A DNA stretch of 64,000 nt from Escherichia coli (GTDB lineage: Bacteria > Pseudomonadota > Gammaproteobacteria > Enterobacterales > Enterobacteriaceae). The notes beneath the pieces are model-generated. The model was not told where the DNA came from, ran no database searches, and was given only the letters and a program-made list of their open reading frames with translations. The translations under genes were made by a program, and so were the position numbers. The DNA lies in NCBI RefSeq assembly GCF_041886205.1, contig NZ_CP169029.1; one strand, 5' to 3'. This document shows positions 5,023 through 63,870 of this stretch, piece by piece (positions within the stretch are counted from its first letter, which is position 1; each line of letters starts with the position of its first letter).

Positions 5023-5250
5023 AATTGCCTGATGCGCTACGCTCATCAGGCCTACAAAATCTATTGCAACATGTTGAATCTTCGTGCGTTTGTAGGCCGG
5101 ATAAGGCGTTCACGACGCATCCGGCATTAGGTGCTCAATGCCTGATGCGCTACGCTTATCAGGCCTACAAAATCTATTGCAACATGTTGAATCTTCATGC
5201 GTTTGTAGGCGGATAAGGCGTTTTCGCCACATCAGGTAAGAGTGAATTCA
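5023..5250. repeat. Tandem REP/BIME-type intergenic repeats (two ~115-bp copies)
   Basis: The unit gcctgatgcgctacgct(c/t)atcaggcctacaaaatctattgcaacatgttgaatcttc…gtaggc(c)ggataaggcg occurs twice, with imperfect palindromes typical of REP elements. Confidence 0.7.
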
Positions 5251-22626: not shown

Positions 22627-23385
22627 ATGGATGCACTACAAACACAAACTGTTAATAGTACAACCGCGCCGCAGCCCAACTACATTCCGGGGCTGATTGC
22701 GGTGGTCGGGTGTGATGGCACCGGTAAATCCACACTGACCACTGACCTGGTGAAATCGCTGCAACAACACTGGCAAACTGAGCGGCGCTATCTGGGGCTG
22801 CTCTCCGGCGAAGACGGCGACAAAATCAAACGATTGCCGTTGGTTGGCGTCTGGCTGGAACGGCGACTGGCGGCCAAATCCTCGAAAACCCAAAGCATGA
22901 AAACCAAATCTCCGGCGCTATGGGCGGCGGTGATTATGTACTGCTTTTCGCTGCGAAGAATGGCGAATCTACGCAAGGTTCAGCGACTGGCGCAAAGTGG
23001 CGTTCTGGTGGTCAGCGATCGCTTCCCGCAGGCTGAAATTTCGGGCTTTTATTATGACGGACCGGGGATCGGCGTCGAACGTGCGACCGGGAAAATCAGC
23101 ATGTTTCTGGCGCAGCGCGAACGGCGTTTATACCAAAAAATGGCGCAATACCGTCCTGAATTAATCATTCGTTTGGGGATTGATATTGATACTGCCATCT
23201 CCCGCAAGCCTGACCATGACTATGCCGAGCTGCAGGACAAAATCGGCGTCATGTCGACGATTGGCTATAACGGCACAAAAATTCTTGAGATTGATGCCAG
23301 AGCGCCCTACAGCGAAGTGCTGGAACAGGCACAGAAGGCGGTTTCTCTGGTTGCCATCGTTTCTGACCGCCGAAGTTTAACTTAA
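22627..23385 (+). CDS. yghR: P-loop NTPase, nucleotide-kinase-like, YghR
   Basis: 252 aa, Walker A GCDGTGKST and SDRFPQ. Confidence 0.85.
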   Translation: MDALQTQTVNSTTAPQPNYIPGLIAVVGCDGTGKSTLTTDLVKSLQQHWQTERRYLGLLSGEDGDKIKRLPLVGVWLERRLAAKSSKTQSMKTKSPALWAAVIMYCFSLRRMANLRKVQRLAQSGVLVVSDRFPQAEISGFYYDGPGIGVERATGKISMFLAQRERRLYQKMAQYRPELIIRLGIDIDTAISRKPDHDYAELQDKIGVMSTIGYNGTKILEIDARAPYSEVLEQAQKAVSLVAIVSDRRSLT

Positions 23386-23430: not shown

Positions 23431-24780
23431 TTGGCGGGTTTTAACATCAAACATTGGTTTGCAGATGGCGCGTTTCGCACCATTATTCGCAATAGCGCCT
23501 GGTTAGGCTCCAGTAATGTCGTGAGCGCCTTGCTGGGGCTGTTGGCGCTCTCGTGTGCCGGTAAAGGGATGACGCCCGCCATGTTTGGCGTACTGGTGAT
23601 TGTGCAATCGTACGCCAAGTCGATCAGCGATTTTATTAAGTTTCAGACATGGCAGTTGGTGGTGCAGTACGGAACGCCAGCCTTGACCAACAATAATCCG
23701 CAGCAATTTCGCAATGTCGTCTCATTTTCCTTCTCGCTGGATATCGTCAGCGGCGCGGTGGCGATTGTCGGCGGCATTGCCTTACTACCATTCCTTTCCC
23801 ATTCATTAGGTCTGGATGACCAAAGTTTTTGGCTGGCGGCGCTGTATTGCACGCTCATTCCTTCAATGGCTTCCTCCACGCCGACCGGCATTCTGCGTGC
23901 GGTAGATCGCTTCGATTTAATTGCTGTACAGCAGGCGACGAAACCTTTTCTGCGCGCAGCGGGGAGCGTCGTAGCCTGGTATTTTGACTTTGGTTTTGCG
24001 GGTTTTGTTATTGCCTGGTACGTGTCGAATCTGGTTGGCGGCACCATGTACTGGTGGTTTGCAGCGCGCGAATTACGCCGCAGAAATATCCATAATGCCT
24101 TCAAATTGAATCTGTTTGAGTCTGCCCGACACATCAAAGGCGCGTGGAGTTTTGTCTGGTCAACCAACATTGCCCACTCCATCTGGTCGGCGCGTAACTC
24201 GTGCAGCACAGTGCTGGTGGGGATCGTGTTAGGACCCGCTGCCGCCGGGTTATTTAAAATCGCCATGACATTCTTCGACGCCGCCGGAACGCCAGCGGGT
24301 TTGCTGGGTAAAAGTTTTTACCCAGAGGTGATGCGTTTAGATCCGCGCACCACCAGACCGTGGTTGTTAGGTGTGAAGTCCGGTTTACTGGCGGGCGGAA
24401 TCGGTATTCTGGTGGCGCTCGCGGTGTTGATCGCCGGCAAGTCGCTCATTTCGCTGGTGTTTGGCGTTAAGTATCTCGAAGCGTATGACCTGATTCAGGT
24501 GATGCTGGGCGCAATTGTGATTTCGATGCTGGGTTTCCCGCAGGAGTCATTGCTATTGATGGCGGGAAAACAGCGCGCTTTTCTCGTGGCGCAAACCATC
24601 GCCTCAATCGGCTACATCGTATTGCTGTTCATGTTCTGTCATCTGTTTGGTGTGCTGGGAGCAGCGTTTGCCTACTTCGGTGGGCAATGTCTGGATGTGG
24701 TGCTCTCGTTAATTCCAACTTTAAAGGCATTTTTTCAGCGTCATTCCTTGCTTTATAACGCAGCCGGAGAGAAATCCTGA
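23431..24780 (+). CDS. yghQ: Polytopic inner membrane protein YghQ, MOP/Wzx-flippase-like, full-length form
   Basis: 449-aa ORF with many predicted transmembrane segments. A TTG start is implied at 23431; an internal Met (…MFGVLVIVQSYAKS…) is the alternative. The stop overlaps the next start (TGATG). Confidence 0.7.
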   Translation: MAGFNIKHWFADGAFRTIIRNSAWLGSSNVVSALLGLLALSCAGKGMTPAMFGVLVIVQSYAKSISDFIKFQTWQLVVQYGTPALTNNNPQQFRNVVSFSFSLDIVSGAVAIVGGIALLPFLSHSLGLDDQSFWLAALYCTLIPSMASSTPTGILRAVDRFDLIAVQQATKPFLRAAGSVVAWYFDFGFAGFVIAWYVSNLVGGTMYWWFAARELRRRNIHNAFKLNLFESARHIKGAWSFVWSTNIAHSIWSARNSCSTVLVGIVLGPAAAGLFKIAMTFFDAAGTPAGLLGKSFYPEVMRLDPRTTRPWLLGVKSGLLAGGIGILVALAVLIAGKSLISLVFGVKYLEAYDLIQVMLGAIVISMLGFPQESLLLMAGKQRAFLVAQTIASIGYIVLLFMFCHLFGVLGAAFAYFGGQCLDVVLSLIPTLKAFFQRHSLLYNAAGEKS

Positions 24781-25604
24781 TGATGAGAAAATATTTCCCG
24801 CTTGAGGCGAGCGAGCGTCTATTTGTTGCGATTGAGGAAGATGATGTCGTTGATGCCCAGGTCAGTTTGCCGCCGACTATTGCACTAAGTTGTACCACCG
24901 AAATCATCCATGATAATTACGCGTTATGCCTGCAGTTCTGGCTCAATGGCGTTAATCGTCAGGAGTTACTGCGTTTAATTCGCAAACAGACCAAAGGCGA
25001 TGAGCTGACGACAGACGAGCGCAAACAGTTTAAATACATGCGAGCGCGCTACAAGCATCTGCGTTTTGCGCAACGGCTATATTTAAAGAAGCATCAGGCC
25101 GGATTTTTATTCGGCAAAACGACCGTTTTTCTGGGGCGTTTTCAGGACGGCTTTCGTAACGGTAAGAAAAATATTGTGTCGTATTACGGTAACCTGTTAC
25201 GGATTTATTTAAGCTCTCCGGTCTGGTCGTTGGTGAACTATTCATTACGCCATAGCCAGTTAGAAAGCGTAAGCGGTTTTATTGCCTATCGGCAAAAGCA
25301 AATGCATGCCCTGAAAGAGATAATTGCCAAACCGCGACTAACCGGCAGGGAATTTCATGATGTGCGAAAAATCATCAGCCAGCAGGTTTCTTATTACGAC
25401 ACCTTAAGATCGCTTGATCCTGAAAATAAAGAGGCGTTACAGGTTTCCCGCTTCCTCGCCGCCATTAATGGCCTGATGGGGGATAAACACGACGACATGG
25501 TGGCGGATGATATGGAAAACCGCCAGTCGTATGATGCACCGGTGGCGCTGGATAGCGATATTCGCCAGCGCTTAGAGCTGCTGATTTCGCGTTTTCCGCT
25601 ATAA
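24780..25604 (+). CDS. Hypothetical soluble protein, 274 aa, translationally coupled to yghQ
   Basis: Clean ORF MMRKYFPLEASERLFVAIEEDDVVDAQ…; no motif I recognise. Confidence 0.6.
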   Translation: MMRKYFPLEASERLFVAIEEDDVVDAQVSLPPTIALSCTTEIIHDNYALCLQFWLNGVNRQELLRLIRKQTKGDELTTDERKQFKYMRARYKHLRFAQRLYLKKHQAGFLFGKTTVFLGRFQDGFRNGKKNIVSYYGNLLRIYLSSPVWSLVNYSLRHSQLESVSGFIAYRQKQMHALKEIIAKPRLTGREFHDVRKIISQQVSYYDTLRSLDPENKEALQVSRFLAAINGLMGDKHDDMVADDMENRQSYDAPVALDSDIRQRLELLISRFPL

Positions 25605-25612
25605 CCGGAGCA

Positions 25613-26176
25613 ATGATGTCATCTCGTTTGATTATTGCGCTGATTATCATGCTCTTAGCCCCGGGTGCGCAGGCACACAATTTCGTCACTGGCAAAACGG
25701 TTACCCCTGTTTATATTCAGGAAGGCGGCGAGCTGCTTCTGAATAGCGACGACGAAATTCACTACCAAAAGTGGAAAAGCACACAATTGGCGGGAAAAGT
25801 CCGCATTATTCAGTATATCGCCGGGCGTAAGTCGGCGAAGAAAAAGAACTCACTGTTAATTAAAGCGGTTGAAGCGGCAAACTTTCCGCAGGATCGTTTT
25901 CAGCCCACCACCATTGTGAACACCGATGATGCCATCTTTGGTACTGGCTATTTTGTTGTTGGCAAAATCGAAAAAAATAAACGCCGCTATCCGTGGGCGC
26001 AATTCGTTATTGACGGCAATGGACTGGGACGCATTGCCTGGCGCTTGCCGGAGCAGAGTTCAACCATTCTGGTGCTGAATAAAGCCGGGCAAATTCAGTG
26101 GGCAAAGGACGGCAGCCTGACGCCGGAAGAGGTAGATCATGTCATTGCGCTGGCGCAGAAGCTGATCAATGAATAA
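25613..26176 (+). CDS. YtfJ-family periplasmic protein (signal peptide)
   Basis: 187 aa with an N-terminal signal peptide (MMSSRLIIALIIMLLAPGAQA) and YtfJ-like blocks (…LAGKVRIIQYIAGR…TTIVNTDDAI…QWAKDGSLTPEEV…). Confidence 0.65.
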   Translation: MMSSRLIIALIIMLLAPGAQAHNFVTGKTVTPVYIQEGGELLLNSDDEIHYQKWKSTQLAGKVRIIQYIAGRKSAKKKNSLLIKAVEAANFPQDRFQPTTIVNTDDAIFGTGYFVVGKIEKNKRRYPWAQFVIDGNGLGRIAWRLPEQSSTILVLNKAGQIQWAKDGSLTPEEVDHVIALAQKLINE

Positions 26177-26205
26177 AAATTCAAAGGATTGAGGGCGTTA
26201 GTGAG

Positions 26206-27276
26206 ATGAAGCTGGTTGAACACTACATCATGCGTGGTACGCGCCGTCTGGTGCTGATTATCGTCGGTTTTCTGATCTTTATTTTCGCCAGCTACTCCGC
26301 ACAGCGTTATCTGACCGAAGCGGCAAATGGGACATTAGCTCTTGATGTTGTGCTGGATATCGTTTTCTACAAAGTGCTGATTGCACTGGAGATGTTGTTA
26401 CCTGTTGGTCTGTATGTGTCAGTTGGCGTGACGCTAGGGCAGATGTATACCGACTCGGAAATTACCGCTATCTCTGCGGCGGGGGGCAGTCCGGGACGCT
26501 TGTACAAAGCCGTTCTTTATCTGGCGATACCGCTAAGTATTTTTGTCACCCTTCTGTCGATGTATGGTCGTCCGTGGGCTTATGCGCAGATTTATCAACT
26601 GGAGCAACAGTCGCAGTCGGAGCTGGATGTTCGCCAGTTGCGGGCAAAGAAATTTAACACTAACGATAACGGACGAATGATCCTTTCGCAGACGGTTGAT
26701 CAGGATAATAATCGCCTGACTGACGCGCTGATTTATACTTCTACTGCCAATCGAACCCGCATTTTCCGCGCCCGTTCGGTTGATGTGGTTGACCCATCAC
26801 CCGAGAAACCGACCGTTATGTTGCATAACGGGACCGCCTATCTTCTCGATCATCAGGGGCGTGACGACAACGAACAGATCTACCGTAATCTGCAATTACA
26901 TCTGAATCCGCTGGATCAAAGCCCTAACGTCAAACGCAAAGCAAAATCGGTCACGGAGCTGGCGCGCTCCGCCTTTCCTGCCGATCATGCCGAACTGCAA
27001 TGGCGACAAAGCCGTGGCCTGACAGCATTGTTGATGGCGCTGCTGGCCATTTCATTAAGTCGGGTAAAACTGCGGCAAGGGCGATTTTCAACATTATTGC
27101 CACTGACGTTGCTGTTTATTGCCATTTTTTATGGCGGCGACGTCTGCCGTACGCTGGTGGCTAACGGCGCGATTCCCCTCATTCCTGGTTTGTGGTTAGT
27201 ACCCGGACTCATGCTAATGGGCCTGCTGATGCTGGTCGCACGCGACTTCTCTTTGCTGCAGAAATTTTCCCGATGA
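26206..27276 (+). CDS. YjgP/YjgQ-family permease, LptF-like
   Basis: 356 aa with the LptF/LptG topology: N-terminal transmembrane helices, a central periplasmic beta-rich region, C-terminal helices; begins MKLVEHYIMRGTRRLVLIIVGFLIF. Confidence 0.65.
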   Translation: MKLVEHYIMRGTRRLVLIIVGFLIFIFASYSAQRYLTEAANGTLALDVVLDIVFYKVLIALEMLLPVGLYVSVGVTLGQMYTDSEITAISAAGGSPGRLYKAVLYLAIPLSIFVTLLSMYGRPWAYAQIYQLEQQSQSELDVRQLRAKKFNTNDNGRMILSQTVDQDNNRLTDALIYTSTANRTRIFRARSVDVVDPSPEKPTVMLHNGTAYLLDHQGRDDNEQIYRNLQLHLNPLDQSPNVKRKAKSVTELARSAFPADHAELQWRQSRGLTALLMALLAISLSRVKLRQGRFSTLLPLTLLFIAIFYGGDVCRTLVANGAIPLIPGLWLVPGLMLMGLLMLVARDFSLLQKFSR

Positions 27277-28352
27277 ATGTTTTCAGTCGCTATTTAATCC
27301 GTCATCTCTTTCTCGGTTTTGCCGCCGCCGCAGGGCTATTGCTGCCGCTTTTTACCACCTTCAACCTGATTAACGAACTGGATGATGTCAGCCCGGGCGG
27401 TTATCGCTGGACTCAGGCGGTGCTGGTGGTGCTAATGACCTTACCGCGCACACTGGTCGAACTTTCGCCATTTATCGCCTTATTGGGAGGGATTGTCGGC
27501 CTGGGGCAGTTATCGAAAAACAGTGAGCTTACCGCCATTCGCAGCATGGGGTTTTCTATCTTCCGTATTGCACTGGTGGCACTGGTTGCAGGGATATTGT
27601 GGACTGTTTCGTTAGGCGCGATAGATGAGTGGGTGGCGTCGCCATTGCAGCAACAGGCGTTGCAAATCAAATCGACCGCCACCGCGTTGGGGGAGGACGA
27701 TGACATTACCGGCAATATGCTGTGGGCCAGGCGTGGTAATGAATTTGTGACGGTGAAATCGCTGAACGAGCAGGGCCAGCCGGTGGGCGTGGAGATTTTT
27801 CATTATCGTGACGATCTCTCGCTCGAATCCTACATTTATGCACGCAGTGCCACCATTAAAGACGACAAAATGTGGATCCTGCATGGTGTGAATCATAAAA
27901 AATGGCTTAACGGTAAAGAAACGCTGGAAACATCAGATAATCTTGCCTGGCAATCTGCCTTCACCAGTATGGATCTTGAAGAGTTATCGATGCCGGGGAA
28001 TACTTTTTCTGTCTGTCAGCTTAATCATTACATCCATTATTTGCAGGAAACCGGGCAACCCAGCAGCGAATACCGCCTTGCACTGTGGGAAAAACTGGGG
28101 CAACCCATCCTGACCCTGGCGATGATTTTGCTGGCTGTACCGTTTACCTTTAGCGCCCCGCGCTCGCCAGGGATGGGTAGCCGTCTCGCTGTAGGCGTCA
28201 TCGTTGGCTTACTCACCTGGATCAGCTATCAAATCATGGTCAATCTGGGATTGCTATTTGCGTTAAGCGCACCTGTTACCGCGCTCGGTTTACCGATAGC
28301 GTTTGTGCTGGTGGCGTTGAGCCTGGTGTATTGGTATGACAGACAACATTAA
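27273..28352 (+). CDS. YjgP/YjgQ-family permease, LptG-like
   Basis: MNVFSRYLIRHLFLGFAAAAGLLLPLFTTFNLINELDDV… closely resembles the LptG N-terminus. ATG at 27273 overlaps the upstream stop (ATGA); the track ORF starts earlier at 27192. Confidence 0.65.
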   Translation: MNVFSRYLIRHLFLGFAAAAGLLLPLFTTFNLINELDDVSPGGYRWTQAVLVVLMTLPRTLVELSPFIALLGGIVGLGQLSKNSELTAIRSMGFSIFRIALVALVAGILWTVSLGAIDEWVASPLQQQALQIKSTATALGEDDDITGNMLWARRGNEFVTVKSLNEQGQPVGVEIFHYRDDLSLESYIYARSATIKDDKMWILHGVNHKKWLNGKETLETSDNLAWQSAFTSMDLEELSMPGNTFSVCQLNHYIHYLQETGQPSSEYRLALWEKLGQPILTLAMILLAVPFTFSAPRSPGMGSRLAVGVIVGLLTWISYQIMVNLGLLFALSAPVTALGLPIAFVLVALSLVYWYDRQH

Positions 28353-28386
28353 ACCCGCCGTGGCGCAACACCACGACGGGCTCACA

Positions 28387-29559
28387 TTACTGCTTCAGAG
28401 TAGCAAATGTCTGAATGATGGCATCGATTTGCTCACGACTGTGGGCAGCGTTTACGCTACAGCGCAGCAGCGTAATGCCCGCAGGCGCGGCAGGCGGCAG
28501 GATAAGATTCACATACACGCCCAGCGAGATAAGCTCGCGCCAGATGCGCAACCCTTCCTCTTTCGAACCGATTATTACCGGCACTACCGGGCTAATATGT
28601 GAACTTAACTCATAACCCAGTTTTTGCAGACCGTCATACAGATGGTTGGCGTTATCCATCAGCTTTTGCCGCAGCTCTGGTTGTGAGGCAATGGTTCTTA
28701 ACGATGAGCGCACGGTCGCAATGCAGGACGGAGAAGGAGAGGCGGTAAAAATATACGGGCGGCTGCCGTAGCGCAGCACTTCCATCGCTTCCGAACCGAC
28801 AGCAAAACCGCCAATCGAGGCCAGACTTTTACTGAAAGTACCAACGATAATATCCACATCATCTTCAACGCCGACAGCTTCAGCCAGTCCACGCCCCGTT
28901 GCACCTAACACGCCAAACGAATGCGCTTCATCGACAATCAAATAACCACCGAGACGACGTTTGATATCAACAATTTCCGCCAGCGGCGCAACGTCACCGA
29001 GCATGCTGTAGATGCCCTCAACGATGATAATCGCCTCTTTCGCCCGTTCACCGAGGCGAACCATGCGCCGTTCCAGATCTTTAGCATCGTTATGGCGGAA
29101 ACGAATAATTTCCGCGCCACCGAGAGAACAGGCGTCATAAATACTGGCGTGGCTGTCGGCATCCAGTAACACCACGGCGTTATGGTCGGCAAGTGCGCTG
29201 ATGACGCCTAAATTAGCGGTATAACCGGTTGAAAAAACGATAGCGGTAGGGCGATTGAAAAACTCGGCAATCTCTTTCTCTAACGCCAGGTGCGGCGCAT
29301 AACTGCCGTTTGCCATACGAGAACCGGTGGTGCCGGTGCCTTGGGCCGCTAACGCTGCCTGACCTTCGGCGATGGCATCATGATTAAAGGTTAAACCGAG
29401 ATAATTATTGGTCCCGGCCAGAATCACTTTTTTATTGCCGATCCGACCTTCGGTGGCGGAATACACTTCATCAATACAGGTGCCAAACGGTGTTAACCCG
29501 TTGTCACTAAATTGCAGTCGCTCGCCAGCAAGGCGCGCATATTTATCGTATAGCCCCAT
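28387..29559 (-). CDS. PLP-dependent alpha-oxoamine synthase (BioF/KBL/serine-palmitoyltransferase family)
   Basis: 390 aa with the class-II aminotransferase fold and a GTFSKS PLP-lysine motif. Which subfamily it belongs to cannot be decided by eye. Confidence 0.8.
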   Translation of the reverse strand: MGLYDKYARLAGERLQFSDNGLTPFGTCIDEVYSATEGRIGNKKVILAGTNNYLGLTFNHDAIAEGQAALAAQGTGTTGSRMANGSYAPHLALEKEIAEFFNRPTAIVFSTGYTANLGVISALADHNAVVLLDADSHASIYDACSLGGAEIIRFRHNDAKDLERRMVRLGERAKEAIIIVEGIYSMLGDVAPLAEIVDIKRRLGGYLIVDEAHSFGVLGATGRGLAEAVGVEDDVDIIVGTFSKSLASIGGFAVGSEAMEVLRYGSRPYIFTASPSPSCIATVRSSLRTIASQPELRQKLMDNANHLYDGLQKLGYELSSHISPVVPVIIGSKEEGLRIWRELISLGVYVNLILPPAAPAGITLLRCSVNAAHSREQIDAIIQTFATLKQ

Positions 29560-29807
29560 TATTTATTCTCCAGCCATGGAAGTAGAGCTTCCATTAATTG
29601 CGCAGGGGTTTTGACATCCAGCAGAATATTAATAGGAATGGAAATATCGAATCTGTCTTCCAGCATCATTAAGAGATCCATCACTTTGATCGACTCCAGG
29701 CCAAGATCGTTGACGAGATCGCTGTCGGGCTTAATTTCCACACCGTTTTCGACCAAATCCTGTAAACAGGAAAGGATGTAATCCATTACTATTTCACGAT
29801 TTACCAT
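29559..29807 (-). CDS. Dedicated acyl carrier protein
   Basis: 82 aa, acidic, with a phosphopantetheine-site-like DLGLESIKVMDLLMMLEDRFD. Its stop overlaps the synthase start. Confidence 0.75.
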   Translation of the reverse strand: MVNREIVMDYILSCLQDLVENGVEIKPDSDLVNDLGLESIKVMDLLMMLEDRFDISIPINILLDVKTPAQLMEALLPWLENK

Positions 29808-29838
29808 AGAAACGTTAACACACCTTTAAACAAGACAA

Positions 29839-30753
29839 TCAAAATAGCCCGTTGCGTAATGCGTGTTCCAGGCTAATCCCGGGAAACCAATTAATATCTT
29901 CAGAAATACGGTTATTATTTGCCGACCAGTCGGCGTGGGTTAATTCACGAATTTTCGAGCGGGTCAGCATAGGTTCTTTACCTGCCAGGCGACTCAACGC
30001 AGTACTGATATCCGCAAGGCAGGTGAGTACCGGCAGAGGAATGCCAACCATCCGCACAGAACCACAACGGGCTTCGGCGGCAAGCTGTCGTACGCGTTGC
30101 CAGTCATAGCCGCCAGCGACGCCATCGCATAATTCATAGGTTTGCGTCTGTACAGTTTCGGCGCTTAACCACTGACCCACGGCTTGCGCGAAATCGGTGA
30201 CGTGCAGGAAAGAGAGCTGTGTATCTGGCGCACCAAGTCGTGGCAGCAGGCCGCGCAGCATCCAGTCAAACAGCGGTTTTAACTCTTTATCGCCTGGACC
30301 ATACACGGCTGTCGGGCGAAAAACGCCCAGCGTAATTTCATCAGCCATTGCAGTCAGCCGTTGTTCGGCGACGTGTTTGGAATTTGCGTACCAGGAGAGT
30401 TCGGGATGGCGCGCCGCCAGCGAAGAGATAAACAGAAAACGTTGGCAAAAGCCGCTCTCTTTTGCCGCTTGCATCAGGCGCAGGCTGCCGTCAACGTTAC
30501 AGCGGGTAAAAATCTCTTCTTTGTGCCCGCGCACTTGCCCGGCGCAATGGACCACCGCGCTGGCTCCGGCAACCAGTTCGCTAAGTGAATGAGTATCTTC
30601 CAGCGAACCGCGCACCCAGATGAGATTGTCATTGACGTGAGCGCGGGCAGTACGCGTCAATGCGCGAACGTGAAAGCCGCGGGCGAGCAGGTTATCGATA
30701 ATATATTTACCGATAAACCCGGTAGCGCCCGTCACCGCGACAGTTTGATTCAT
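29839..30753 (-). CDS. NAD(P)-dependent epimerase/dehydratase-family reductase (extended SDR)
   Basis: 304 aa with N-terminal VTGATGFIGKYII Rossmann motif. Its start overlaps the stop of the upstream ligase gene. Confidence 0.8.
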   Translation of the reverse strand: MNQTVAVTGATGFIGKYIIDNLLARGFHVRALTRTARAHVNDNLIWVRGSLEDTHSLSELVAGASAVVHCAGQVRGHKEEIFTRCNVDGSLRLMQAAKESGFCQRFLFISSLAARHPELSWYANSKHVAEQRLTAMADEITLGVFRPTAVYGPGDKELKPLFDWMLRGLLPRLGAPDTQLSFLHVTDFAQAVGQWLSAETVQTQTYELCDGVAGGYDWQRVRQLAAEARCGSVRMVGIPLPVLTCLADISTALSRLAGKEPMLTRSKIRELTHADWSANNNRISEDINWFPGISLEHALRNGLF

Positions 30754-32471
30754 GCCAGGGATTCCTGCACATGAAGGCTTTCAGCATAAGCCTTCTGATA
30801 ACGTTTTTTCGCTTCCGCATGGGCAGGCTTGCCGGAGGACGTTCGGGGAATACTGTGGGGCGGCAACAGATCGATAGCCGCGGTCACGCCAAATTCGCTT
30901 TGGATCCGTGCTGCCAGCGCGTGGATAAGCTGCCCGCGACGTTCTTCATCGCTGATCCGACACTGGATCTGCAAAATGATTTTTTCCTGGGCGGTAACAA
31001 AAGCAATCGCATCGCCAGAATGAATTTCCGGTTCCTGTTCCGCAATATATTCAATATCCTGCGGCCAGATATTACGGCCACGAATAATAATCAGATCTTT
31101 AATGCGTCCGGTGACATACAGATAACCGTCCAGCAGATAACCGAGGTCGCCGGTGTCTAACCAGCCCGTCGCGGCAATCTCGTCTTGCGAAGCCTGGTCG
31201 CCAAAGTAACCGCTCATCAGGCTAGGGCCGGAGATGCAAATATGGCCTACCACACGTTCCGCGACAGGTATACCTGCTTCATTGCGGATTTCAATGCCAT
31301 GTTCCGGCAACGCTTTACCGCAGTTGACGAAAGTCGATACGGCGCGTGTTTCAGCACCCGGCGCGACGGCTTTACCGTGGTATTCGAGGATGTCGCGATC
31401 CACTTCGTTAACCATAACCCCGGAGGTTTCATCAGAGAAGCTGACAGCCAGCGCATTTTCTGCCAGTCCGTAGCACGGCATGAAAGTTTTATCGTCAAAG
31501 TTAACCTGACGGAAACATTCAGCGAATTGATGGAGTTGTTCTGCGGAGATGGGTTCTGCACCAATACCAGCGACGCGCCAGGAGGAAAGATCCAGTTCTG
31601 CGAGATCTTTTTCATTCACGCGGCGCTGGCACAATTCATAGCCAAACGGCGGCGCAACGGAAACGGTGCCGCGATTTTTACTGATCAATTTAAGCCATTG
31701 CAGAGGACGCATGGCAAAATCCTGAGTGCGCAAATAATCTACTGAAAGCTGCGTGGCGACGGGGGTCAGGAGAAAGCCGACCAGTCCCATATCATGGTAG
31801 AAAGGCAGCCAGGAGACGCAGCGGTCGCCAGGGCGTAATTTAATGCCATCGTGGCTTATAGCACGTAGATTAGCCATCACTTCGCGATGGGTGATAATGA
31901 CGCCACGGGGAAAACGGGTGCTGCCGGAGGTGTATTGGAGGTAGGCGATATCGTCCGGAACTGGGCGCTGGAGCGCAACATCGGCTTCCGGTAATGCCTT
32001 AAACCAGGCGTGGCTTAAAACATGTAATTCGGGATTGTTATGCGTCGCAGCATTGACCAGCGGTAACCACTCATCACCAGTGATAATGGCTGCGGGCTGG
32101 CAACTTGCCAGTAAACCCTGCAGTTTGGCGCTCCAGGAATCCCGCTGACCGACGCCCATTGGAATCGCCAACGGGACGGCGACTAAGCCGGCATACTGGC
32201 AGGCAAAAAAAGCCTCTACGAACCCGCTACTGGTTTCGGCAATCAGCGCCACGCGATCGCCTTTTTTCAGGTTCAGCGATAACAACCGCTTCGCACCAGC
32301 TTCGGCACGCGCTTTTAACGTCTGATATTCCAGTTGATCTTCAAGTTGGCAACGTCTGTCATAAAAATTCATTCCATCGCTACTCAGAGCGGCGTAGTCC
32401 AAAGCATCAACCAGCGTTGGAAAATCGGCATAGCGCATAGGTAGGGAATGCGTAAAGATTTTATTAGACAT
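30750..32471 (-). CDS. Fatty-acyl-AMP ligase / acyl-ACP synthetase-like adenylating enzyme
   Basis: AMP-binding signature YTSGSTRFPRGV plus the …TGDLGY… and GRIKDLIIIRGRNIWPQDIE blocks. Start taken at the internal Met MSNKIFTHSL of ORF 30750-32498. Confidence 0.8.
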   Translation of the reverse strand: MSNKIFTHSLPMRYADFPTLVDALDYAALSSDGMNFYDRRCQLEDQLEYQTLKARAEAGAKRLLSLNLKKGDRVALIAETSSGFVEAFFACQYAGLVAVPLAIPMGVGQRDSWSAKLQGLLASCQPAAIITGDEWLPLVNAATHNNPELHVLSHAWFKALPEADVALQRPVPDDIAYLQYTSGSTRFPRGVIITHREVMANLRAISHDGIKLRPGDRCVSWLPFYHDMGLVGFLLTPVATQLSVDYLRTQDFAMRPLQWLKLISKNRGTVSVAPPFGYELCQRRVNEKDLAELDLSSWRVAGIGAEPISAEQLHQFAECFRQVNFDDKTFMPCYGLAENALAVSFSDETSGVMVNEVDRDILEYHGKAVAPGAETRAVSTFVNCGKALPEHGIEIRNEAGIPVAERVVGHICISGPSLMSGYFGDQASQDEIAATGWLDTGDLGYLLDGYLYVTGRIKDLIIIRGRNIWPQDIEYIAEQEPEIHSGDAIAFVTAQEKIILQIQCRISDEERRGQLIHALAARIQSEFGVTAAIDLLPPHSIPRTSSGKPAHAEAKKRYQKAYAESLHVQESLA

Positions 32472-32842
32472 ATACACCACGAAAAAATTGGATATCAAAA
32501 ATAAAATGACAATAATGCGGTGGATTATATAGGCATAAAAGATAAATGAGATAGTATTTTCATCAGTGTGAAAATGAACATTGATTTATATAATGAGTTT
32601 GAGTTTTTTTGTTTTTATTGTGAATGATATTTAATTTATGAATATATTAAGAAGAAGCCTTGTCCGGTCGCCTTAAATCGACAAAAGGCATTGTGGCGCT
32701 TCTGTGTAGTCGCTGACCCTATCGTAATCATTAATAAATACTATTTATTCGTCGTTTGTATCCATTGGGTTGATTATTAAGGTGCCGTTCGTTGCTGTTG
32801 CAACCTGTTTGTCACCGTTAATTATTTGTTACCCACAGAACT

Positions 32843-33985
32843 ATGGAATGCGATCTGCTGATGATTAAAATTGAAAAAGTAATTAATAAAAATGACCTTA
32901 AGGCATTTATCGCTTTTCCGTCATCACTTTATCCCGACGATCCAAACTGGATACCCCCTTTATTCATTGAACGCAACGAGCATTTGTCTGCGAAAAATCC
33001 GGGGACGGACCATATCATCTGGCAGGCGTGGGTGGCAAAAAAAGCGGGGCAGATAGTTGGGCGTATTACCGCGCAAATAGATACCTTGCACCGCGAGCGT
33101 TACGGCAAAGATACCGGTCATTTCGGCATGATTGACGCCATTGATGATCCGCAGGTTTTTGCCGCGTTGTTTGGCGCAGCGGAAGCGTGGTTGAAGTCAC
33201 AAGGTGCAAGTAAGATCAGCGGTCCTTTCAGCCTGAATATCAATCAGGAAAGCGGATTACTGATTGAAGGTTTCGATACACCACCCTGTGCGATGATGCC
33301 GCACGGTAAACCGTGGTATGCCGCGCATATTGAACAATTGGGTTATCACAAAGGCATTGATTTACTGGCGTGGTGGATGCAGCGAACCGATCTCACTTTC
33401 TCTCCGGCGCTAAAAAAACTGATGGATCAGGTGCGTAAGAAGGTGACCATTCGCTGCATCAATCGCCAGCGGTTTGCCGAAGAGATGCAGATCCTGCGTG
33501 AGATTTTCAACTCTGGCTGGCAGCACAACTGGGGATTTGTGCCGTTTACCGAACATGAATTCGCGACCATGGGCGATCAACTTAAATATCTGGTGCCGGA
33601 CGATATGATCTACATCGCTGAGATTGATTCTGCACCCTGCGCGTTTATTGTCGGCTTGCCAAACATCAACGAGGCGATTGCCGATCTGAACGGATCGCTC
33701 TTTCCCTTCGGCTGGGCAAAATTGCTGTGGCGTTTGAAAGTCAGCGGTGTGCGAACTGCGCGAGTGCCGCTGATGGGCGTGCGGGACGAGTATCAGTTCA
33801 GCCGCATCGGCCCGGTGATTGCGCTGTTATTGATTGAAGCCTTACGCGATCCGTTTGCCCGCCGGAAGATCGATGCGCTGGAGATGTCATGGCTCCTCGA
33901 AACCAATACAGGCATGAATAACATGCTGGAACGCATTGGGGCAGAGCCGTACAAGCGTTACCGATTGTATGAAAAGCAAATTTAA
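32843..33985 (+). CDS. yghO: YghO, GNAT-like putative N-acyltransferase, apparently intact
   Basis: 380-aa ORF divergent from the lipid operon. The GNAT-like assignment is tentative and from memory of the family; the true start may be the downstream Met (MIKIEKV). Confidence 0.6.
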   Translation: MECDLLMIKIEKVINKNDLKAFIAFPSSLYPDDPNWIPPLFIERNEHLSAKNPGTDHIIWQAWVAKKAGQIVGRITAQIDTLHRERYGKDTGHFGMIDAIDDPQVFAALFGAAEAWLKSQGASKISGPFSLNINQESGLLIEGFDTPPCAMMPHGKPWYAAHIEQLGYHKGIDLLAWWMQRTDLTFSPALKKLMDQVRKKVTIRCINRQRFAEEMQILREIFNSGWQHNWGFVPFTEHEFATMGDQLKYLVPDDMIYIAEIDSAPCAFIVGLPNINEAIADLNGSLFPFGWAKLLWRLKVSGVRTARVPLMGVRDEYQFSRIGPVIALLLIEALRDPFARRKIDALEMSWLLETNTGMNNMLERIGAEPYKRYRLYEKQI

Positions 33986-41470: not shown

Positions 41471-41824
41471 TAGCGTCAAAAAAGCCCCGGCAAGTTTTAT
41501 TGTCGGGGCTATGATAGTAACTGCGGTAGTACATTTATCCCGGAAATAACCGGAGCGATTATCAGGGTTTAACAATATTAAATACCCGTAGCGCATTACT
41601 AGCGGGCCTAAAACAACAATATGGACATCTTAACGATACTCTGCGCCTGCGTGTGCGGAACAGAAACCCTTACCCGATATACTTGTTATGCCAGAGGTAG
41701 CAATTGCGTTAGCGGCGTACTGTTGCTGTAAAGTATAACGTCTATATTTTACAGTTCAGTCCTCTTTTGCTTATTACAACCTTAAGTATATCAAGCATAT
41801 AAAGATAATAAGAGACTGAACAAT

Positions 41825-43570: not shown

Positions 43571-43919
43571 CGATATCAGACAGGGAAAATGCCTGGTCAG
43601 AAATGGGGCGTAATTCGGTTTTCTCAAAAAAGTAAAAAACGCCTTGTGGGCGGGGGATTATCTTACGACATGTAATTTGTTCCATACTTTTAAACTCCCC
43701 ATTGTTATGAAGTAAAGGCGTTATCTTTTTATCCGTTCAAACTTTAGCTCAAATTTGTAGCATGCAGATTCCGGTATTTTTCCTGATACCAGAAAAAAGT
43801 CACTGGAGGAAAGGTTGTGATAAAAATCACAAATTAAGTCAGGTTACTGGAGATAAAGTCTGCAACAGAGAATTATCGTAGTCTGTGTACCTCAACCAGT
43901 ATTTTAAAGGCTCTGTTAC

Positions 43920-63610: not shown

Positions 63611-63819
63611 CAGCTTTTCCTTACAGAGGGTGAATAAAAAAGCCGGTACCCACAAATGTGGATACCGGCAGGTACAAAACAGCATGGTCAGATAAAGTGG
63701 TTTTTCCCGGACATAAATGCTTCCCCTCTCTCATCCGCCAGAGAAGTATCAGTCCGTTGTGTGCAATTCCGTTCTGCATGATGAAGAGATTCAGCTGCCT
63801 TTTCGCAGACCATTAACCA

Positions 63820-63870
63820 CTATAAACGATCGATAGTAACGATCGATACCTGTTTTATCGATCGTTTTAT
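63820..63870 (-). promoter_or_regulatory. agn43 phase-variation switch: three GATC (Dam) sites in the OxyR-binding region
   Basis: GATC at 63827, 63840 and 63859 within aaacGATCgatagtaacGATCgatacctgttttatcGATCgtttt, about 220-250 bp upstream of the flu start. Confidence 0.7.

What the first reader, a model, noticed from the sequence alone, without database searches (positions are those of the whole stretch)
23431..28352. Putative export module beside the lipid operon: MOP-like flippase, orphan protein, YtfJ-like periplasmic protein, LptF/LptG-like permease pair
Five co-directional, closely spaced or overlapping genes encode only envelope proteins: a 449-aa polytopic YghQ, a 274-aa soluble protein with no recognisable motifs, a signal-peptide YtfJ-family protein, and a second LptF/LptG-like pair distinct from the essential lptFG. 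No LptB-like ABC ATPase is encoded in the cluster. Their position convergent with the lipid operon suggests a dedicated transporter that moves an amphipathic product across the envelope, perhaps borrowing an ATPase encoded elsewhere. A paralogous Lpt-like extractor for a non-LPS lipid would be new for E. coli.
Basis: partly seen in the sequence, partly recalled or inferred. Interest (0 to 1): 0.75.

Follow-up and report, generated by a model that had tools for sequence, protein, structure and literature searches.

The report
Sphingolipid export genes of E. coli

Summary
The five genes are real, at the stated coordinates, and under strong purifying selection. They lie inside a 13-gene cluster, yghT | yghS-yghR-yghQ-orf274-ytfJ2-lptF2-lptG2 > < spt-acpR-cerR-aasR | yghO. 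All 13 genes are present in all 16 species-level enterobacterial genomes recovered. The cluster is contiguous in 4051 of the 4091 complete E. coli genomes that have the block. K-12 lost the core by an IS5 deletion.

LptF2 and LptG2 score above the curated LptF/LptG cut-offs but are only 27-28% identical to the essential pair. They keep the LptB-coupling glutamates and replace LPS-phosphate contacts (LptG K34/K40/K41 become N/D/D). No LptA, LptB or LptC homologue is linked to the cluster.

A 2026 preprint shows that the Caulobacter LptF2/G2 are needed when anionic sphingolipid is made and that they pull down LptB. It also draws the E. coli UTI89 locus. The transporter idea is therefore supported, but the novelty claim is not.

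Two genes do not look like export parts. The "orphan" is a cytoplasmic CHAD-fold protein that travels with kinases, so it more likely serves head-group chemistry. YtfJ2 is a cysteine-free thioredoxin-fold paralogue of YtfJ, not an Lpt bridge protein. This is a new member of a known kind.

The parts
21016..21708 (-). yghT, a dTMP-kinase-like P-loop protein (cluster member, divergent from yghS)
   Evidence: ORF; PGAP annotation; weak dTMP kinase NCBIfam hit; present in 15 of the 16 loci, with L003 ending before this gene; dN/dS 0.05-0.06.
21882..22595 (+). yghS, a dTMP-kinase-like P-loop paralogue and probable first gene of the 7-gene operon
   Evidence: Alignment A2 shows invariant GxDGxGK, DR[YF]PQ and RKPDH motifs. 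The A2 profile hits thymidylate kinases at E about 1e-5.
22627..23385 (+). yghR, the third dTMP-kinase-like P-loop paralogue
   Evidence: It is 34-44% identical to YghS and YghT.
23431..24780 (+). yghQ, a MOP/Wzx-type polytopic membrane protein and candidate inner-membrane flippase
   Evidence: Pfam Polysacc_synt PF01943 E=1e-8 and PF13440. NCBIfam 'MOP flippase family' match is weak. Seven strong hydropathy peaks. Truncated at codon ~355 in K-12 by the IS5 deletion. The Caulobacter locus has CC_1166, described as an IPR002797 oligosaccharide flippase.
24780..25604 (+). orf274, a soluble all-helical CHAD-fold protein (the 'orphan') whose start overlaps the yghQ stop
25613..26176 (+). ytfJ2, a signal-peptide YtfJ-family periplasmic protein with a cysteine-free thioredoxin fold
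26206..27276 (+). lptF2, an LptF paralogue (6 TM segments plus a periplasmic beta-jellyroll)
   Evidence: TIGR04407 314 bits. Matches PDB LptF chains at E 1e-30 to 5e-19 over the full length. 27% identical to K-12 LptF. Coupling-helix Glu and R33 are kept. The position of R212 is Ala or Ser in 9 of 9 orthologues.
27273..28352 (+). lptG2, an LptG paralogue whose start overlaps the lptF2 stop by 4 nt
   Evidence: TIGR04408 306 bits. Matches E. coli LptG 6mhu_G at E=2e-41. 28% identical to K-12 LptG. E88 equivalent is kept. K34/K40/K41 become N31/D37/D38 within the invariant motif FNLINELDD.
28350..28384 (.). Palindrome filling the 34-nt gap between the convergent lptG2 and spt stops; a weak candidate for a bidirectional terminator
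   Evidence: 16-pair stem. RNA fold -14.7 kcal/mol, z = -2.6, no U-tract.
28387..29559 (-). spt, serine palmitoyltransferase
   Evidence: NF047599 597 bits against a cut-off of 500. PGAP names it 'spt'. The BL21 orthologue is active (PMC9386255).
29559..29807 (-). acpR, the specialised acyl carrier protein
   Evidence: PMC9386255.
29839..30753 (-). epi/cerR-like NAD-dependent reductase
   Evidence: named ECD_02852 'epi' in PMC9386255.
30750..32438 (-). aasR, a fatty acyl-AMP ligase / acyl-AcpR synthetase
   Evidence: NF006624 864 bits; PMC9386255.
32843..33985 (+). yghO, a homologue of the bacterial ceramide synthase (aca/bCerS)
   Evidence: ORF; annotation; equated with CC_1154 in PMC9386255 Fig. 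9. Its 5' end is removed in K-12.

Best explanation
The block is the transport part of the enterobacterial sphingolipid gene cluster, mixed with what is probably head-group chemistry. AasR, AcpR and SPT make 3-oxo-sphinganine; this was shown for the E. coli B proteins when overexpressed. YghO and the CerR-like reductase then complete a (dihydro)ceramide; this is inferred by homology. A head group is probably added in the cytoplasm by the three dTMP-kinase-like proteins YghT/S/R working with the CHAD-fold protein orf274; this is inferred and is the weakest step. YghQ, a MOP/Wzx-type protein, flips the lipid to the periplasmic leaflet; this is inferred from its family and from a counterpart of the same family in the Caulobacter locus. 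LptF2-LptG2 form the membrane part of an ABC extractor that docks on the cell's only LptB dimer. It pulls the sphingolipid out of the inner membrane and hands it to the shared Lpt bridge (LptA, LptDE); this is inferred from the Caulobacter LptF2/G2 work and from the conserved coupling-helix glutamates. The changed cavity residues fit a substrate other than lipid A. YtfJ2 is a periplasmic accessory protein of unknown role and is not a bridge subunit.
For: LptF2 and LptG2 exceed the curated LptF/LptG cut-offs. They align over their full length to solved LptF and LptG chains. They are only 27-28% identical to the essential pair. The essential pair is present in 5425 of 5426 genomes, the paralogues in 4091. 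The coupling-helix Glu residues (LptF E84, LptG E88) are conserved, whereas LPS contacts listed in PMC6744409 are changed: LptG K34 to N, K40 to D, K41 to D, R133 to L, and LptF K322 to N. LptG K62 and R136 and LptF R33 and K317 stay basic. All 13 cluster genes co-occur in 16 of 16 species-level genomes from 7 genera. In Pantoea brenneri the spt operon has moved to the other side of the block but is still adjacent. Within E. coli, the block is in 4091 genomes, the spt operon in 4067, and the whole cluster is contiguous in 4051; losses are joint deletions. dN/dS is 0.03-0.13 for every gene. No LptA or LptC homologue occurs in the window or in any of the 16 loci. The only LptB-like hit is a 31%-identical ABC ATPase outside the cluster in three Pseudocitrobacter loci. 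In Caulobacter, lptF2, lptG2 and lptC2 can be deleted only when spt or cpgB is absent, F2 and G2 co-purify, and both pull down LptB. The authors state that lptF2/G2 occur in many alpha- and gammaproteobacterial sphingolipid loci and draw E. coli UTI89. PMC11324152 proposes the Polysacc_synt protein CC_1166 as the flippase. E. coli BL21 AasR/AcpR/SPT make 3-oxo-sphinganine.
Against: None of my literature searches turned up a report of a native E. coli sphingolipid, so the substrate is hypothetical. Orthology of the E. coli pair to the Caulobacter pair, as opposed to an independent duplication, was not tested because I could not retrieve the Caulobacter sequences. LptB binding is shown only in Caulobacter and only in a preprint. 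The E. coli cluster lacks LptC2 and the CpgA/B/C head-group genes, so details may differ. YghQ's match to flippase families is weak. The roles assigned to YghT/S/R, orf274 and YtfJ2 rest on fold and gene neighbourhood only. YtfJ2 is 55% identical to core YtfJ, which exists in K-12 without the cluster.
Confidence: 0.7

Rival explanations
1. All five genes form one export machine. orf274 and YtfJ2 would be structural or chaperone subunits of the transporter, with YtfJ2 standing in for the missing LptC2/LptA.
For: The genes are tightly packed, the yghQ/orf274 stop and start overlap, and all five are strictly co-conserved. The cluster has no LptC2, so a periplasmic helper would be useful, and YtfJ2 is periplasmic.
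Against: orf274 has no signal or TM segment and has a CHAD fold. Its distant relatives sit next to YghT/S/R-like kinases on three contigs where no Lpt or spt homologue is visible, although those contigs are only 5-8 kb long. It is also fused to APH-type kinase domains. YtfJ2 has a thioredoxin fold rather than the Lpt beta-jellyroll, and it has a 55% identical paralogue in strains without the cluster.
Confidence: 0.1
2. The cluster is silent or relict in E. coli and makes no envelope lipid under natural conditions. The Lpt paralogues have no present function.
For: My literature searches found no report of a native E. coli sphingolipid. K-12 and about a quarter of complete genomes lack an intact cluster without obvious harm. 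The two divergent control regions are AT-rich, with GC 0.42-0.44, as is typical of silenced loci; that link is my own inference.
Against: dN/dS is 0.03-0.13 for all 13 genes over divergences up to dS of about 2. Synteny is intact across 7 genera. 75% of complete E. coli genomes keep the block full length. The BL21 biosynthetic proteins are catalytically active.
Confidence: 0.1
3. LptF2G2 with YghQ export a variant of LPS or another glycolipid or polysaccharide, unrelated to the neighbouring sphingolipid operon.
For: NCBI equivalog models and PGAP name the pair LptF/LptG and call YghQ an 'LPS biosynthesis protein'. Distant orf274 relatives lie next to GT4 glycosyltransferases and Polysacc_synt flippases.
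Against: There is no glycosyltransferase among the 13 genes. Linkage with spt is strict even after rearrangement. Key LPS-phosphate and core contacts are replaced by N/D/D. Experimental precedent points to sphingolipid.
Confidence: 0.07
4. The ATPase that drives LptF2G2 is encoded in the cluster: one of the P-loop proteins YghT/S/R rather than LptB.
For: They are about 230-250 aa long with a Walker A motif, similar in size to LptB. YghR is annotated 'ATP-binding protein' in the K-12 record, and YghS and YghR are co-transcribed with lptF2G2.
Against: The profile of the family hits thymidylate kinases across both halves of the protein but matches ABC ATPases only at the P-loop. No LSGGQ signature is present, and the invariant DR[YF]PQ and RKPDH motifs are of kinase type. 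tblastn with LptB finds nothing in the cluster.
Confidence: 0.03

Closest known systems
Caulobacter crescentus LptF2/LptG2 (CCNA_01214/CCNA_01213), sphingolipid-locus paralogues of the LPS extractor (Uchendu, Isom and Klein, bioRxiv 2026; proposed earlier in PMC11324152)
   Same: A second LptF/LptG pair encoded inside the spt/acpR/cerR/aasR/bcerS locus, next to a Polysacc_synt-type putative flippase. No LptB, LptA, LptD or LptE copy lies in the locus. The LptB-coupling glutamates are conserved in the E. coli pair.
   Different: The enterobacterial locus has no LptC2 and none of the CpgA/B/C, nucleotidyltransferase or HIT genes. It carries three dTMP-kinase-like proteins, a CHAD-fold protein and a YtfJ paralogue instead. 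No genetics or biochemistry exists for the E. coli pair, and its orthology to the Caulobacter pair was not tested here.
Canonical E. coli LptB2FGC LPS extractor
   Same: Same family models above cut-off. Six TM helices plus a periplasmic beta-jellyroll inserted after TM3. The two genes are adjacent with overlapping stop and start. The coupling-helix Glu is kept in both subunits. LptF R33 and K317 and LptG K62 and R136 remain basic.
   Different: Only 27-28% identity. The pair is accessory (75% of genomes against essentially 100%). LptG K34/K40/K41 become N/D/D, R133 becomes L, and LptF K322 becomes N. LptF R212, the site whose substitution bypasses LptC, is Ala or Ser and is followed by a 10-residue deletion. 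The pair is encoded away from lptCAB.
MOP-superfamily Wzx-type flippases, and CC_1166 of Caulobacter
   Same: YghQ matches Pfam Polysacc_synt and is a polytopic membrane protein of about 450 aa. CC_1166 is described as an IPR002797 oligosaccharide flippase and sits in the equivalent locus.
   Different: The match is weak (E=1e-8, far below any equivalog cut-off). The substrate would be a ceramide-based lipid rather than an undecaprenyl-linked glycan. There is no experimental evidence for either protein.
CHAD domain proteins (polyphosphate-binding modules; PDB 6qv5, 3e0s, 6rn5) and the archaeal PPK3 operon (two dTMP-kinase paralogues plus a CHAD protein, PMC12995831)
   Same: orf274 has the CHAD two-bundle helical fold, and its basic/histidine motifs align to the CHAD signature motifs. 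Like PPK3, the E. coli cluster combines several dTMP-kinase-superfamily paralogues with a CHAD-fold protein.
   Different: orf274 itself does not reach Pfam CHAD significance. No PPX or SixA is nearby. YghT/S/R show no closer sequence affinity to the solved PPK3-type protein (2plr/5h70, E=0.17, P-loop only) than to ordinary thymidylate kinases. Polyphosphate binding is untested.
YtfJ (b4216), the core-genome periplasmic protein of unknown function
   Same: 55% identity over 181 residues, the same family models, and a signal peptide.
   Different: YtfJ2 is encoded inside the sphingolipid cluster and is lost together with it. Neither protein has a known function.

Membership tests
LptF/LptG permease family (PF03739; TIGR04407/TIGR04408) | Profile match above the curated cut-off, each subunit scoring best with its own model | tested here: met
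   LptF2: 314 bits against TIGR04407 (cut-off 230) and 67 bits against the LptG model. LptG2: 306 bits against TIGR04408 (cut-off 240) and 82 bits against the LptF model.
LptF/LptG permease family (PF03739; TIGR04407/TIGR04408) | Six TM helices with a large periplasmic domain between TM3 and TM4, aligned over the full length to solved structures | tested here: met
   Three TM-like segments, a gap of about 150 residues, then three more in both proteins. Full-length alignments to 6mjp_F and 6mhu_G.
LptF/LptG permease family (PF03739; TIGR04407/TIGR04408) | Coupling-helix glutamate that engages LptB (LptF E84, LptG E88; residue roles from my own knowledge of Simpson et al. 2016) | tested here: met
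   YTDSEITAI in LptF2 and KNSELTAIR in LptG2; the Glu is invariant in 9 of 9 orthologues.
LPS-specific extractor (function of canonical LptFG) | Cationic cavity residues that bind the lipid A 1- and 4'-phosphates and the inner core (PMC6744409) | tested here: not met
   LptG K34 to N, K40 to D, K41 to D, R133 to L; LptF K322 to N. Retained as basic: LptG K62 (R) and R136 (K), LptF R33 and K317 (R). K34E is lethal in canonical LptG.
Sphingolipid-locus LptF2/LptG2 (Caulobacter type) | A second copy besides the canonical pair, encoded within the spt locus | tested here: met
   Canonical pair in 5425 of 5426 genomes. Paralogues adjacent to spt in 16 of 16 genomes and in 4051 E. coli genomes.
Sphingolipid-locus LptF2/LptG2 (Caulobacter type) | Common descent with CCNA_01213/01214 (one clade in a phylogeny) | not tested
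   Caulobacter and Sphingomonas sequences could not be retrieved with the capped searches. The only support is the preprint's statement and its Fig. 2B.
Sphingolipid-locus LptF2/LptG2 (Caulobacter type) | Physical interaction with LptB, and deletion tolerated only when sphingolipid synthesis is off | not testable with these tools
   Needs pull-downs and genetics in an spt+ E. coli strain.
MOP/Wzx flippase | Significant match to Polysacc_synt/MOP profiles and a polytopic architecture | tested here: inconclusive
   PF01943 E=1e-8 and PF13440 E=1e-7. NCBIfam MOP flippase 32 bits against a cut-off of 273. A crude hydropathy scan finds 7 strong peaks, fewer than the 12-14 helices typical of the family.
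CHAD domain (PF05235) | Two-bundle all-helical CHAD fold | tested here: met
CHAD domain (PF05235) | Significant sequence match to the Pfam profile | tested here: not met
   The E. coli protein has no hit. 14 of 62 family members hit at E<=0.1 and one at 2.5e-5. The family profile against PDB gives 6qv5 at E=0.031.
CHAD domain (PF05235) | Binds inorganic polyphosphate | not testable with these tools
   Needs a binding assay.
YtfJ_HI0045 family (PF09695/TIGR01626) | Profile match above cut-off with an N-terminal signal peptide | tested here: met
   214 bits against a cut-off of 151; PF09695 199 bits; hydrophobic N-terminus ending in AQA-HN.
Thiol-disulfide oxidoreductases of the TlpA/DsbE/ResA type (structural neighbours of YtfJ2) | CXXC or peroxidatic Cys active site | tested here: not met
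Lpt periplasmic bridge proteins (LptA/LptC, OstA-like beta-jellyroll) | A homologue encoded in or next to the cluster | tested here: not met
   tblastn with E. coli LptA and LptC finds nothing in the 64-kb window or in the 16 related loci. YtfJ2 has a different fold.
ABC transporter ATPase (LptB-like) encoded in the cluster | A nucleotide-binding domain with the ABC signature among the 13 genes | tested here: not met
   LptB tblastn gives no hit inside the cluster. YghT/S/R are thymidylate-kinase-like.
PPK3-type polyphosphate kinase module | Two or more dTMP-kinase-superfamily paralogues in an operon with a CHAD protein | tested here: met
   YghT/S/R plus CHAD-fold orf274 in 15 of the 16 loci, with L003 ending upstream of the ygh genes; operon description in PMC12995831.
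PPK3-type polyphosphate kinase module | Sequence affinity to characterised PPK3 subunits, with PPX/SixA neighbours | tested here: not met
   The solved PPK3-type homologue 2plr/5h70 matches only at the P-loop (E=0.17), whereas ordinary thymidylate kinases score about 1e-5. No PPX or SixA is in the cluster.

The most novel reading that the evidence does not exclude
The enterobacterial cluster may be a distinct variant of the bacterial sphingolipid system in two respects. First, the head group may be built by a kinase module of three dTMP-kinase-like paralogues plus a CHAD-fold protein. This resembles the archaeal PPK3/CHAD polyphosphate operon, so the product could be a multiply phosphorylated, or polyphosphate-derived, ceramide. 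Second, the lipid may be extracted by an LptB2-LptF2-LptG2 complex that is naturally LptC-independent. LptF2 carries Ala or Ser at the R212 position, where substitutions let canonical LptF bypass LptC, and no LptC2 exists in the cluster. A Cys-less thioredoxin-fold protein (YtfJ2) may act on or bind the head group in the periplasm.
Probability: 0.15. Interest if true: 0.7.

Novelty: new member of a known kind. Interest (0 to 1): 0.4.

Why it matters
Most E. coli strains, but not the laboratory K-12 line, carry a complete, selectively maintained gene set for making a sphingolipid and probably exporting it. Its extractor would have to share LptB, and probably the LptA-LptDE bridge, with LPS transport. 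If so, the essential LPS pathway, which is a current antibiotic target, has a second client in wild strains. E. coli, with its full Lpt genetic and in vitro toolkit, would then be the best place to study how one ATPase serves two permease pairs and how substrate choice is encoded in the LptFG cavity. The result also warns that automatic annotation names these paralogues 'LPS export permease LptF/LptG' in thousands of genomes.

Tried and rejected
1. The scan of one-genome-per-species contigs with LptG2 returned only 16 enterobacterial loci. No Caulobacter or Sphingomonas sequence was recovered, so an LptF2/G2 phylogeny could not be built.

2. The three word-indexed protein searches list only the best 120 hits, all close enterobacterial orthologues. 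Distant relatives came only from the exhaustive search with orf274.

4. YtfJ2 against PDB by sequence gave only chance hits. Its fold says thioredoxin-like, but that did not suggest a function.

5. YghT/S/R as PPK2 or PPK3 enzymes: the profile against PDB favours ordinary thymidylate kinases, so no specific link was shown.

6. YghT/S/R as the missing ABC ATPase: rejected.

7. Promoter and terminator scans were not above shuffled expectation. The inter-operon hairpin is only moderately stable and lacks a U-tract.

8. Rfam found no RNA element inside the cluster.

9. The supplement tables of PMC11324152 do not include E. coli. A literature search on YtfJ found nothing functional.

10. Three further contexts of distant orf274 relatives were on short contigs and were mostly uninformative. 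The exception was one with an AasR homologue nearby.

Full report
THE OBSERVATION

The window is E. coli chromosome and is 100% identical over the block to strain 6EVA.
- yghQ, 23431-24780, 449 aa.
- An unnamed 274-aa ORF (orf274), 24780-25604.
- A YtfJ-family gene (ytfJ2), 25613-26176.
- An lptF-like gene (lptF2), 26206-27276.
- An lptG-like gene (lptG2), 27273-28352.

The stop and start codons overlap at yghQ/orf274 and at lptF2/lptG2. The other gaps are 8-29 nt. NCBIfam places the two permeases above the curated LptF and LptG cut-offs (314 bits against 230, and 306 against 240). The YtfJ-like protein also scores above its cut-off. YghQ matches MOP/Polysacc_synt families only weakly, and orf274 matches nothing.

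A hydropathy scan gives 3+3 TM segments around a periplasmic insert of about 150 residues in each permease. It gives a signal-like N-terminus in YtfJ2 and no hydrophobic segment in orf274. All five genes are under strong purifying selection, with dN/dS of 0.03-0.13 against two cryptic Escherichia clades and Pseudocitrobacter.
- orf274 is not an envelope protein.
- yghS and yghR, upstream, are co-directional with gaps of 31 and 45 nt, so the likely operon starts at 21882.

THE SURROUNDINGS

The convergent operon is annotated spt, acyl carrier protein, NAD-dependent epimerase family protein and fatty acyl-AMP ligase, followed by the divergent yghO. SPT scores 597 bits on the serine palmitoyltransferase equivalog model. 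These are the genes studied as ECD_02851-02854 in E. coli BL21. When overexpressed, AasR, AcpR and SPT make 3-oxo-sphinganine, and yghO is equated with the Caulobacter ceramide synthase (PMC9386255).

K-12 has an IS5-associated deletion running from codon ~355 of yghQ into the 5' end of yghO. It removes four of the five genes and the whole spt operon.

LINKAGE OF THE BLOCK TO THE LIPID OPERON

A scan of one genome per species with LptG2 returned 16 loci from Escherichia (4 species-level genomes), Shimwellia, Pluralibacter, Erwinia, Pseudocitrobacter, Citrobacter and Pantoea. All 16 hold the full set yghT, S, R, Q, orf274, ytfJ2, lptF2, lptG2, spt, acpR, cerR, aasR and yghO wherever the contig reaches. 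Flanking genes differ between genera. In Pantoea brenneri the spt operon has moved to the other side of the block and is still adjacent.

Among 5426 complete E. coli genomes:
- The block is full length in 4091.
- The spt operon is full length in 4067.
- The whole 13-kb cluster is contiguous in 4051.
- The essential lptFG pair is present in 5425.

The losses I inspected are joint deletions.

THE LPT PARALOGUES

LptF2 and LptG2 align over their full length to solved LptF and LptG chains. They are 27% and 28% identical to the K-12 proteins. The glutamates of the coupling helices are conserved in all nine orthologues examined. That fits docking on LptB.

Several residues that contact LPS in the cryo-EM structure (PMC6744409) are changed:
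- LptG K34, K40 and K41 are N, D and D, inside the invariant motif FNLINELDD. K34E is lethal in the canonical protein.
- LptG R133 is L.
- LptF K322 is N.
- LptG K62 and R136 and LptF R33 and K317 remain basic.

This pattern suits a smaller, still anionic substrate rather than lipid A-core. That reading is my inference.

LptF R212 is the only site where substitutions (G, S or C) let E. coli live without LptC (PMC9972910). It is Ala or Ser in every LptF2 and is followed by a 10-residue deletion. MAFFT and HMMER agree on this alignment. No LptA or LptC homologue is present in the window or in any of the 16 loci. The only LptB-like hit is an unrelated ABC ATPase outside the cluster in Pseudocitrobacter.

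WHAT IS ALREADY KNOWN

PMC11324152 (2024) named a second LptC, LptF and LptG and a Polysacc_synt-type putative flippase (CC_1166) in the Caulobacter sphingolipid locus and proposed that they export phosphosphingolipids.

A preprint of April 2026 (10.64898/2026.04.12.717747) reports the following:
- lptF2, lptG2 and lptC2 can be deleted only if spt or the ceramide kinase cpgB is absent.
- LptF2 and LptG2 co-purify.
- Both pull down the single LptB.
- lptF2/G2 occur in many alpha- and gammaproteobacterial sphingolipid loci, whereas lptC2 is restricted to Caulobacter.
- Fig. 2B draws the E. coli UTI89 locus.

The E. coli genes have been pointed out but not studied.

THE ORPHAN

The gene neighbourhood ties the family to kinases rather than to Lpt proteins:
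- Distant members (25-34% identity) sit next to YghT/S/R-like proteins on metagenomic contigs where no Lpt or spt homologue is visible.
- One sits near a YghQ-like flippase and a GT4 glycosyltransferase.
- One sits near an AasR homologue.
- In two proteins of about 980 aa, two tandem copies are fused behind an APH-type kinase domain (Pfam APH E=1.6e-7).

CHAD domains are polyphosphate-binding modules (bioRxiv 10.1101/567040). The recently described archaeal PPK3 is a heteromer of two dTMP-kinase paralogues encoded with a CHAD protein (PMC12995831). The E. coli cluster has three dTMP-kinase-like paralogues, with invariant GxDGxGK, DR[YF]PQ and RKPDH motifs. They show no closer sequence affinity to the solved PPK3-type protein than to ordinary thymidylate kinases.

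I therefore assign orf274 to cytoplasmic head-group chemistry with YghT/S/R. I treat the polyphosphate link as a lead only. The Caulobacter ceramide kinase CpgB belongs to a different, DAG-kinase-like family (PMC10331486), and the E. coli cluster has no Cpg genes. The E. coli head group is probably different.

YTFJ2

MOST LIKELY MECHANISM

1. Shown for the E. coli B proteins: AasR, AcpR and SPT make the long-chain base.
2. Inferred by homology: YghO and the reductase complete the ceramide.
3. Inferred from fold and neighbourhood, and weak: YghT/S/R with orf274 add an anionic head group.
4. Inferred: YghQ flips the lipid across the inner membrane.
5. Inferred: LptF2G2 with LptB2 extract it and pass it to the shared Lpt bridge, possibly without LptC.

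Rivals are a silent relic, a non-sphingolipid glycolipid exporter, a five-protein export machine, and a cluster-encoded ATPase. Each is less well supported (see the rival entries).

VERDICT

The feature is real and well conserved. It is the E. coli member of a recently described kind of system, and its accessory genes differ from the Caulobacter model and are uncharacterised.

Noticed in passing
window 24780-25604; L020:4038-4853, L023:1488-3182, L026:2580-3401; proteins P0368, P0386: The 'orphan' defines a divergent CHAD-fold family that repeatedly travels with kinases. It sits next to YghT/S/R-like P-loop proteins on distant metagenomic contigs. It occurs as tandem duplicates (P0243, P0380). 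It is fused as two copies behind an APH/choline-kinase-type domain in proteins of about 980 aa.
   Followed up: partly
window 21016-23385 (yghT, yghS, yghR) with 24780-25604: Three dTMP-kinase-like paralogues plus a CHAD-fold protein mirror the archaeal PPK3 polyphosphate-kinase operon (two dTMPK paralogues plus a CHAD protein, PMC12995831). That paper does not mention the ygh genes. No specific sequence affinity to PPK3 was found.
   Followed up: partly
window 26206-27276 (LptF2 residue aligned to LptF R212, about codon 213): The only LptF position where substitutions bypass LptC (R212G/S/C) is naturally Ala or Ser in all nine LptF2 orthologues examined, and a 10-residue deletion follows it. 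The cluster has no LptC2.
   Followed up: partly
L002:12001-15366 (K-12) against window 23431-33985: K-12 carries an IS5 element in place of the 3' end of yghQ through the 5' end of yghO, so the standard laboratory strain lacks four of the five genes and the whole spt operon. Strain LZHX12 has a larger deletion that joins a yghT remnant to gspL (L028:9001-9927).
   Followed up: yes
L016:3-11071 (Pantoea brenneri): The aasR-cerR-acpR-spt operon lies upstream of yghT instead of downstream of lptG2. The two halves were rearranged yet stayed adjacent.
   Followed up: yes
window 24780-28352 against 28387-33985, compared with L005 and L006: Synonymous divergence from cryptic Escherichia clades is uneven. 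dS is 0.6-0.8 for orf274, ytfJ2 and lptG2 but 0.25-0.35 for spt, yghO and yghS. This suggests a recombination mosaic inside the cluster.
   Followed up: no
window 21709-21881 and 32439-32842: The two divergent intergenic regions that bound the cluster's operons lie in AT-rich stretches, with GC 0.42-0.44 against about 0.52 around them. This could mean the cluster is silenced under laboratory conditions.
   Followed up: no
proteins P0033, P0142, P0408: Some database proteins are chimeras of cluster genes with other genes: orf274 with a GspM domain, LptG2 with a GspC domain, and YtfJ2 with an LptF/G domain. They probably come from deletions or gene-calling read-through in particular strains.
   Followed up: no
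window 25613-26176 (YtfJ2 residues 70-76): From my reading of the model's secondary structure, the invariant loop AGRxSAK appears to sit where thioredoxin-fold oxidoreductases carry the CXXC motif. No residue-level structural alignment was made. The protein has no cysteine, so a non-redox, possibly anion-binding, role is conceivable.
   Followed up: no
window 41525-41746 (-), 16139-16215, 5095-5165, 63629-63865 (-): Rfam hits outside the finding: sRNA C0719 between glcB and glcA, two naRNA4 (REP-type) elements, and IS102 RNA.
   Followed up: no
window 43762-44742 (L001:40332-41312): An IS5-like ISKpn26 transposase lies just downstream of glcA in this strain, followed by MalY/PatB-family and nhaC genes and then fragments of psiE and IS911.
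   Followed up: no
L010:18117-18728, L014:18131-18742, L018:18133-18744: In Pseudocitrobacter only, an ABC ATPase 31% identical to LptB lies about 1.5 kb beyond yghO. It is not conserved in the other genera and lies outside the cluster.
   Followed up: no
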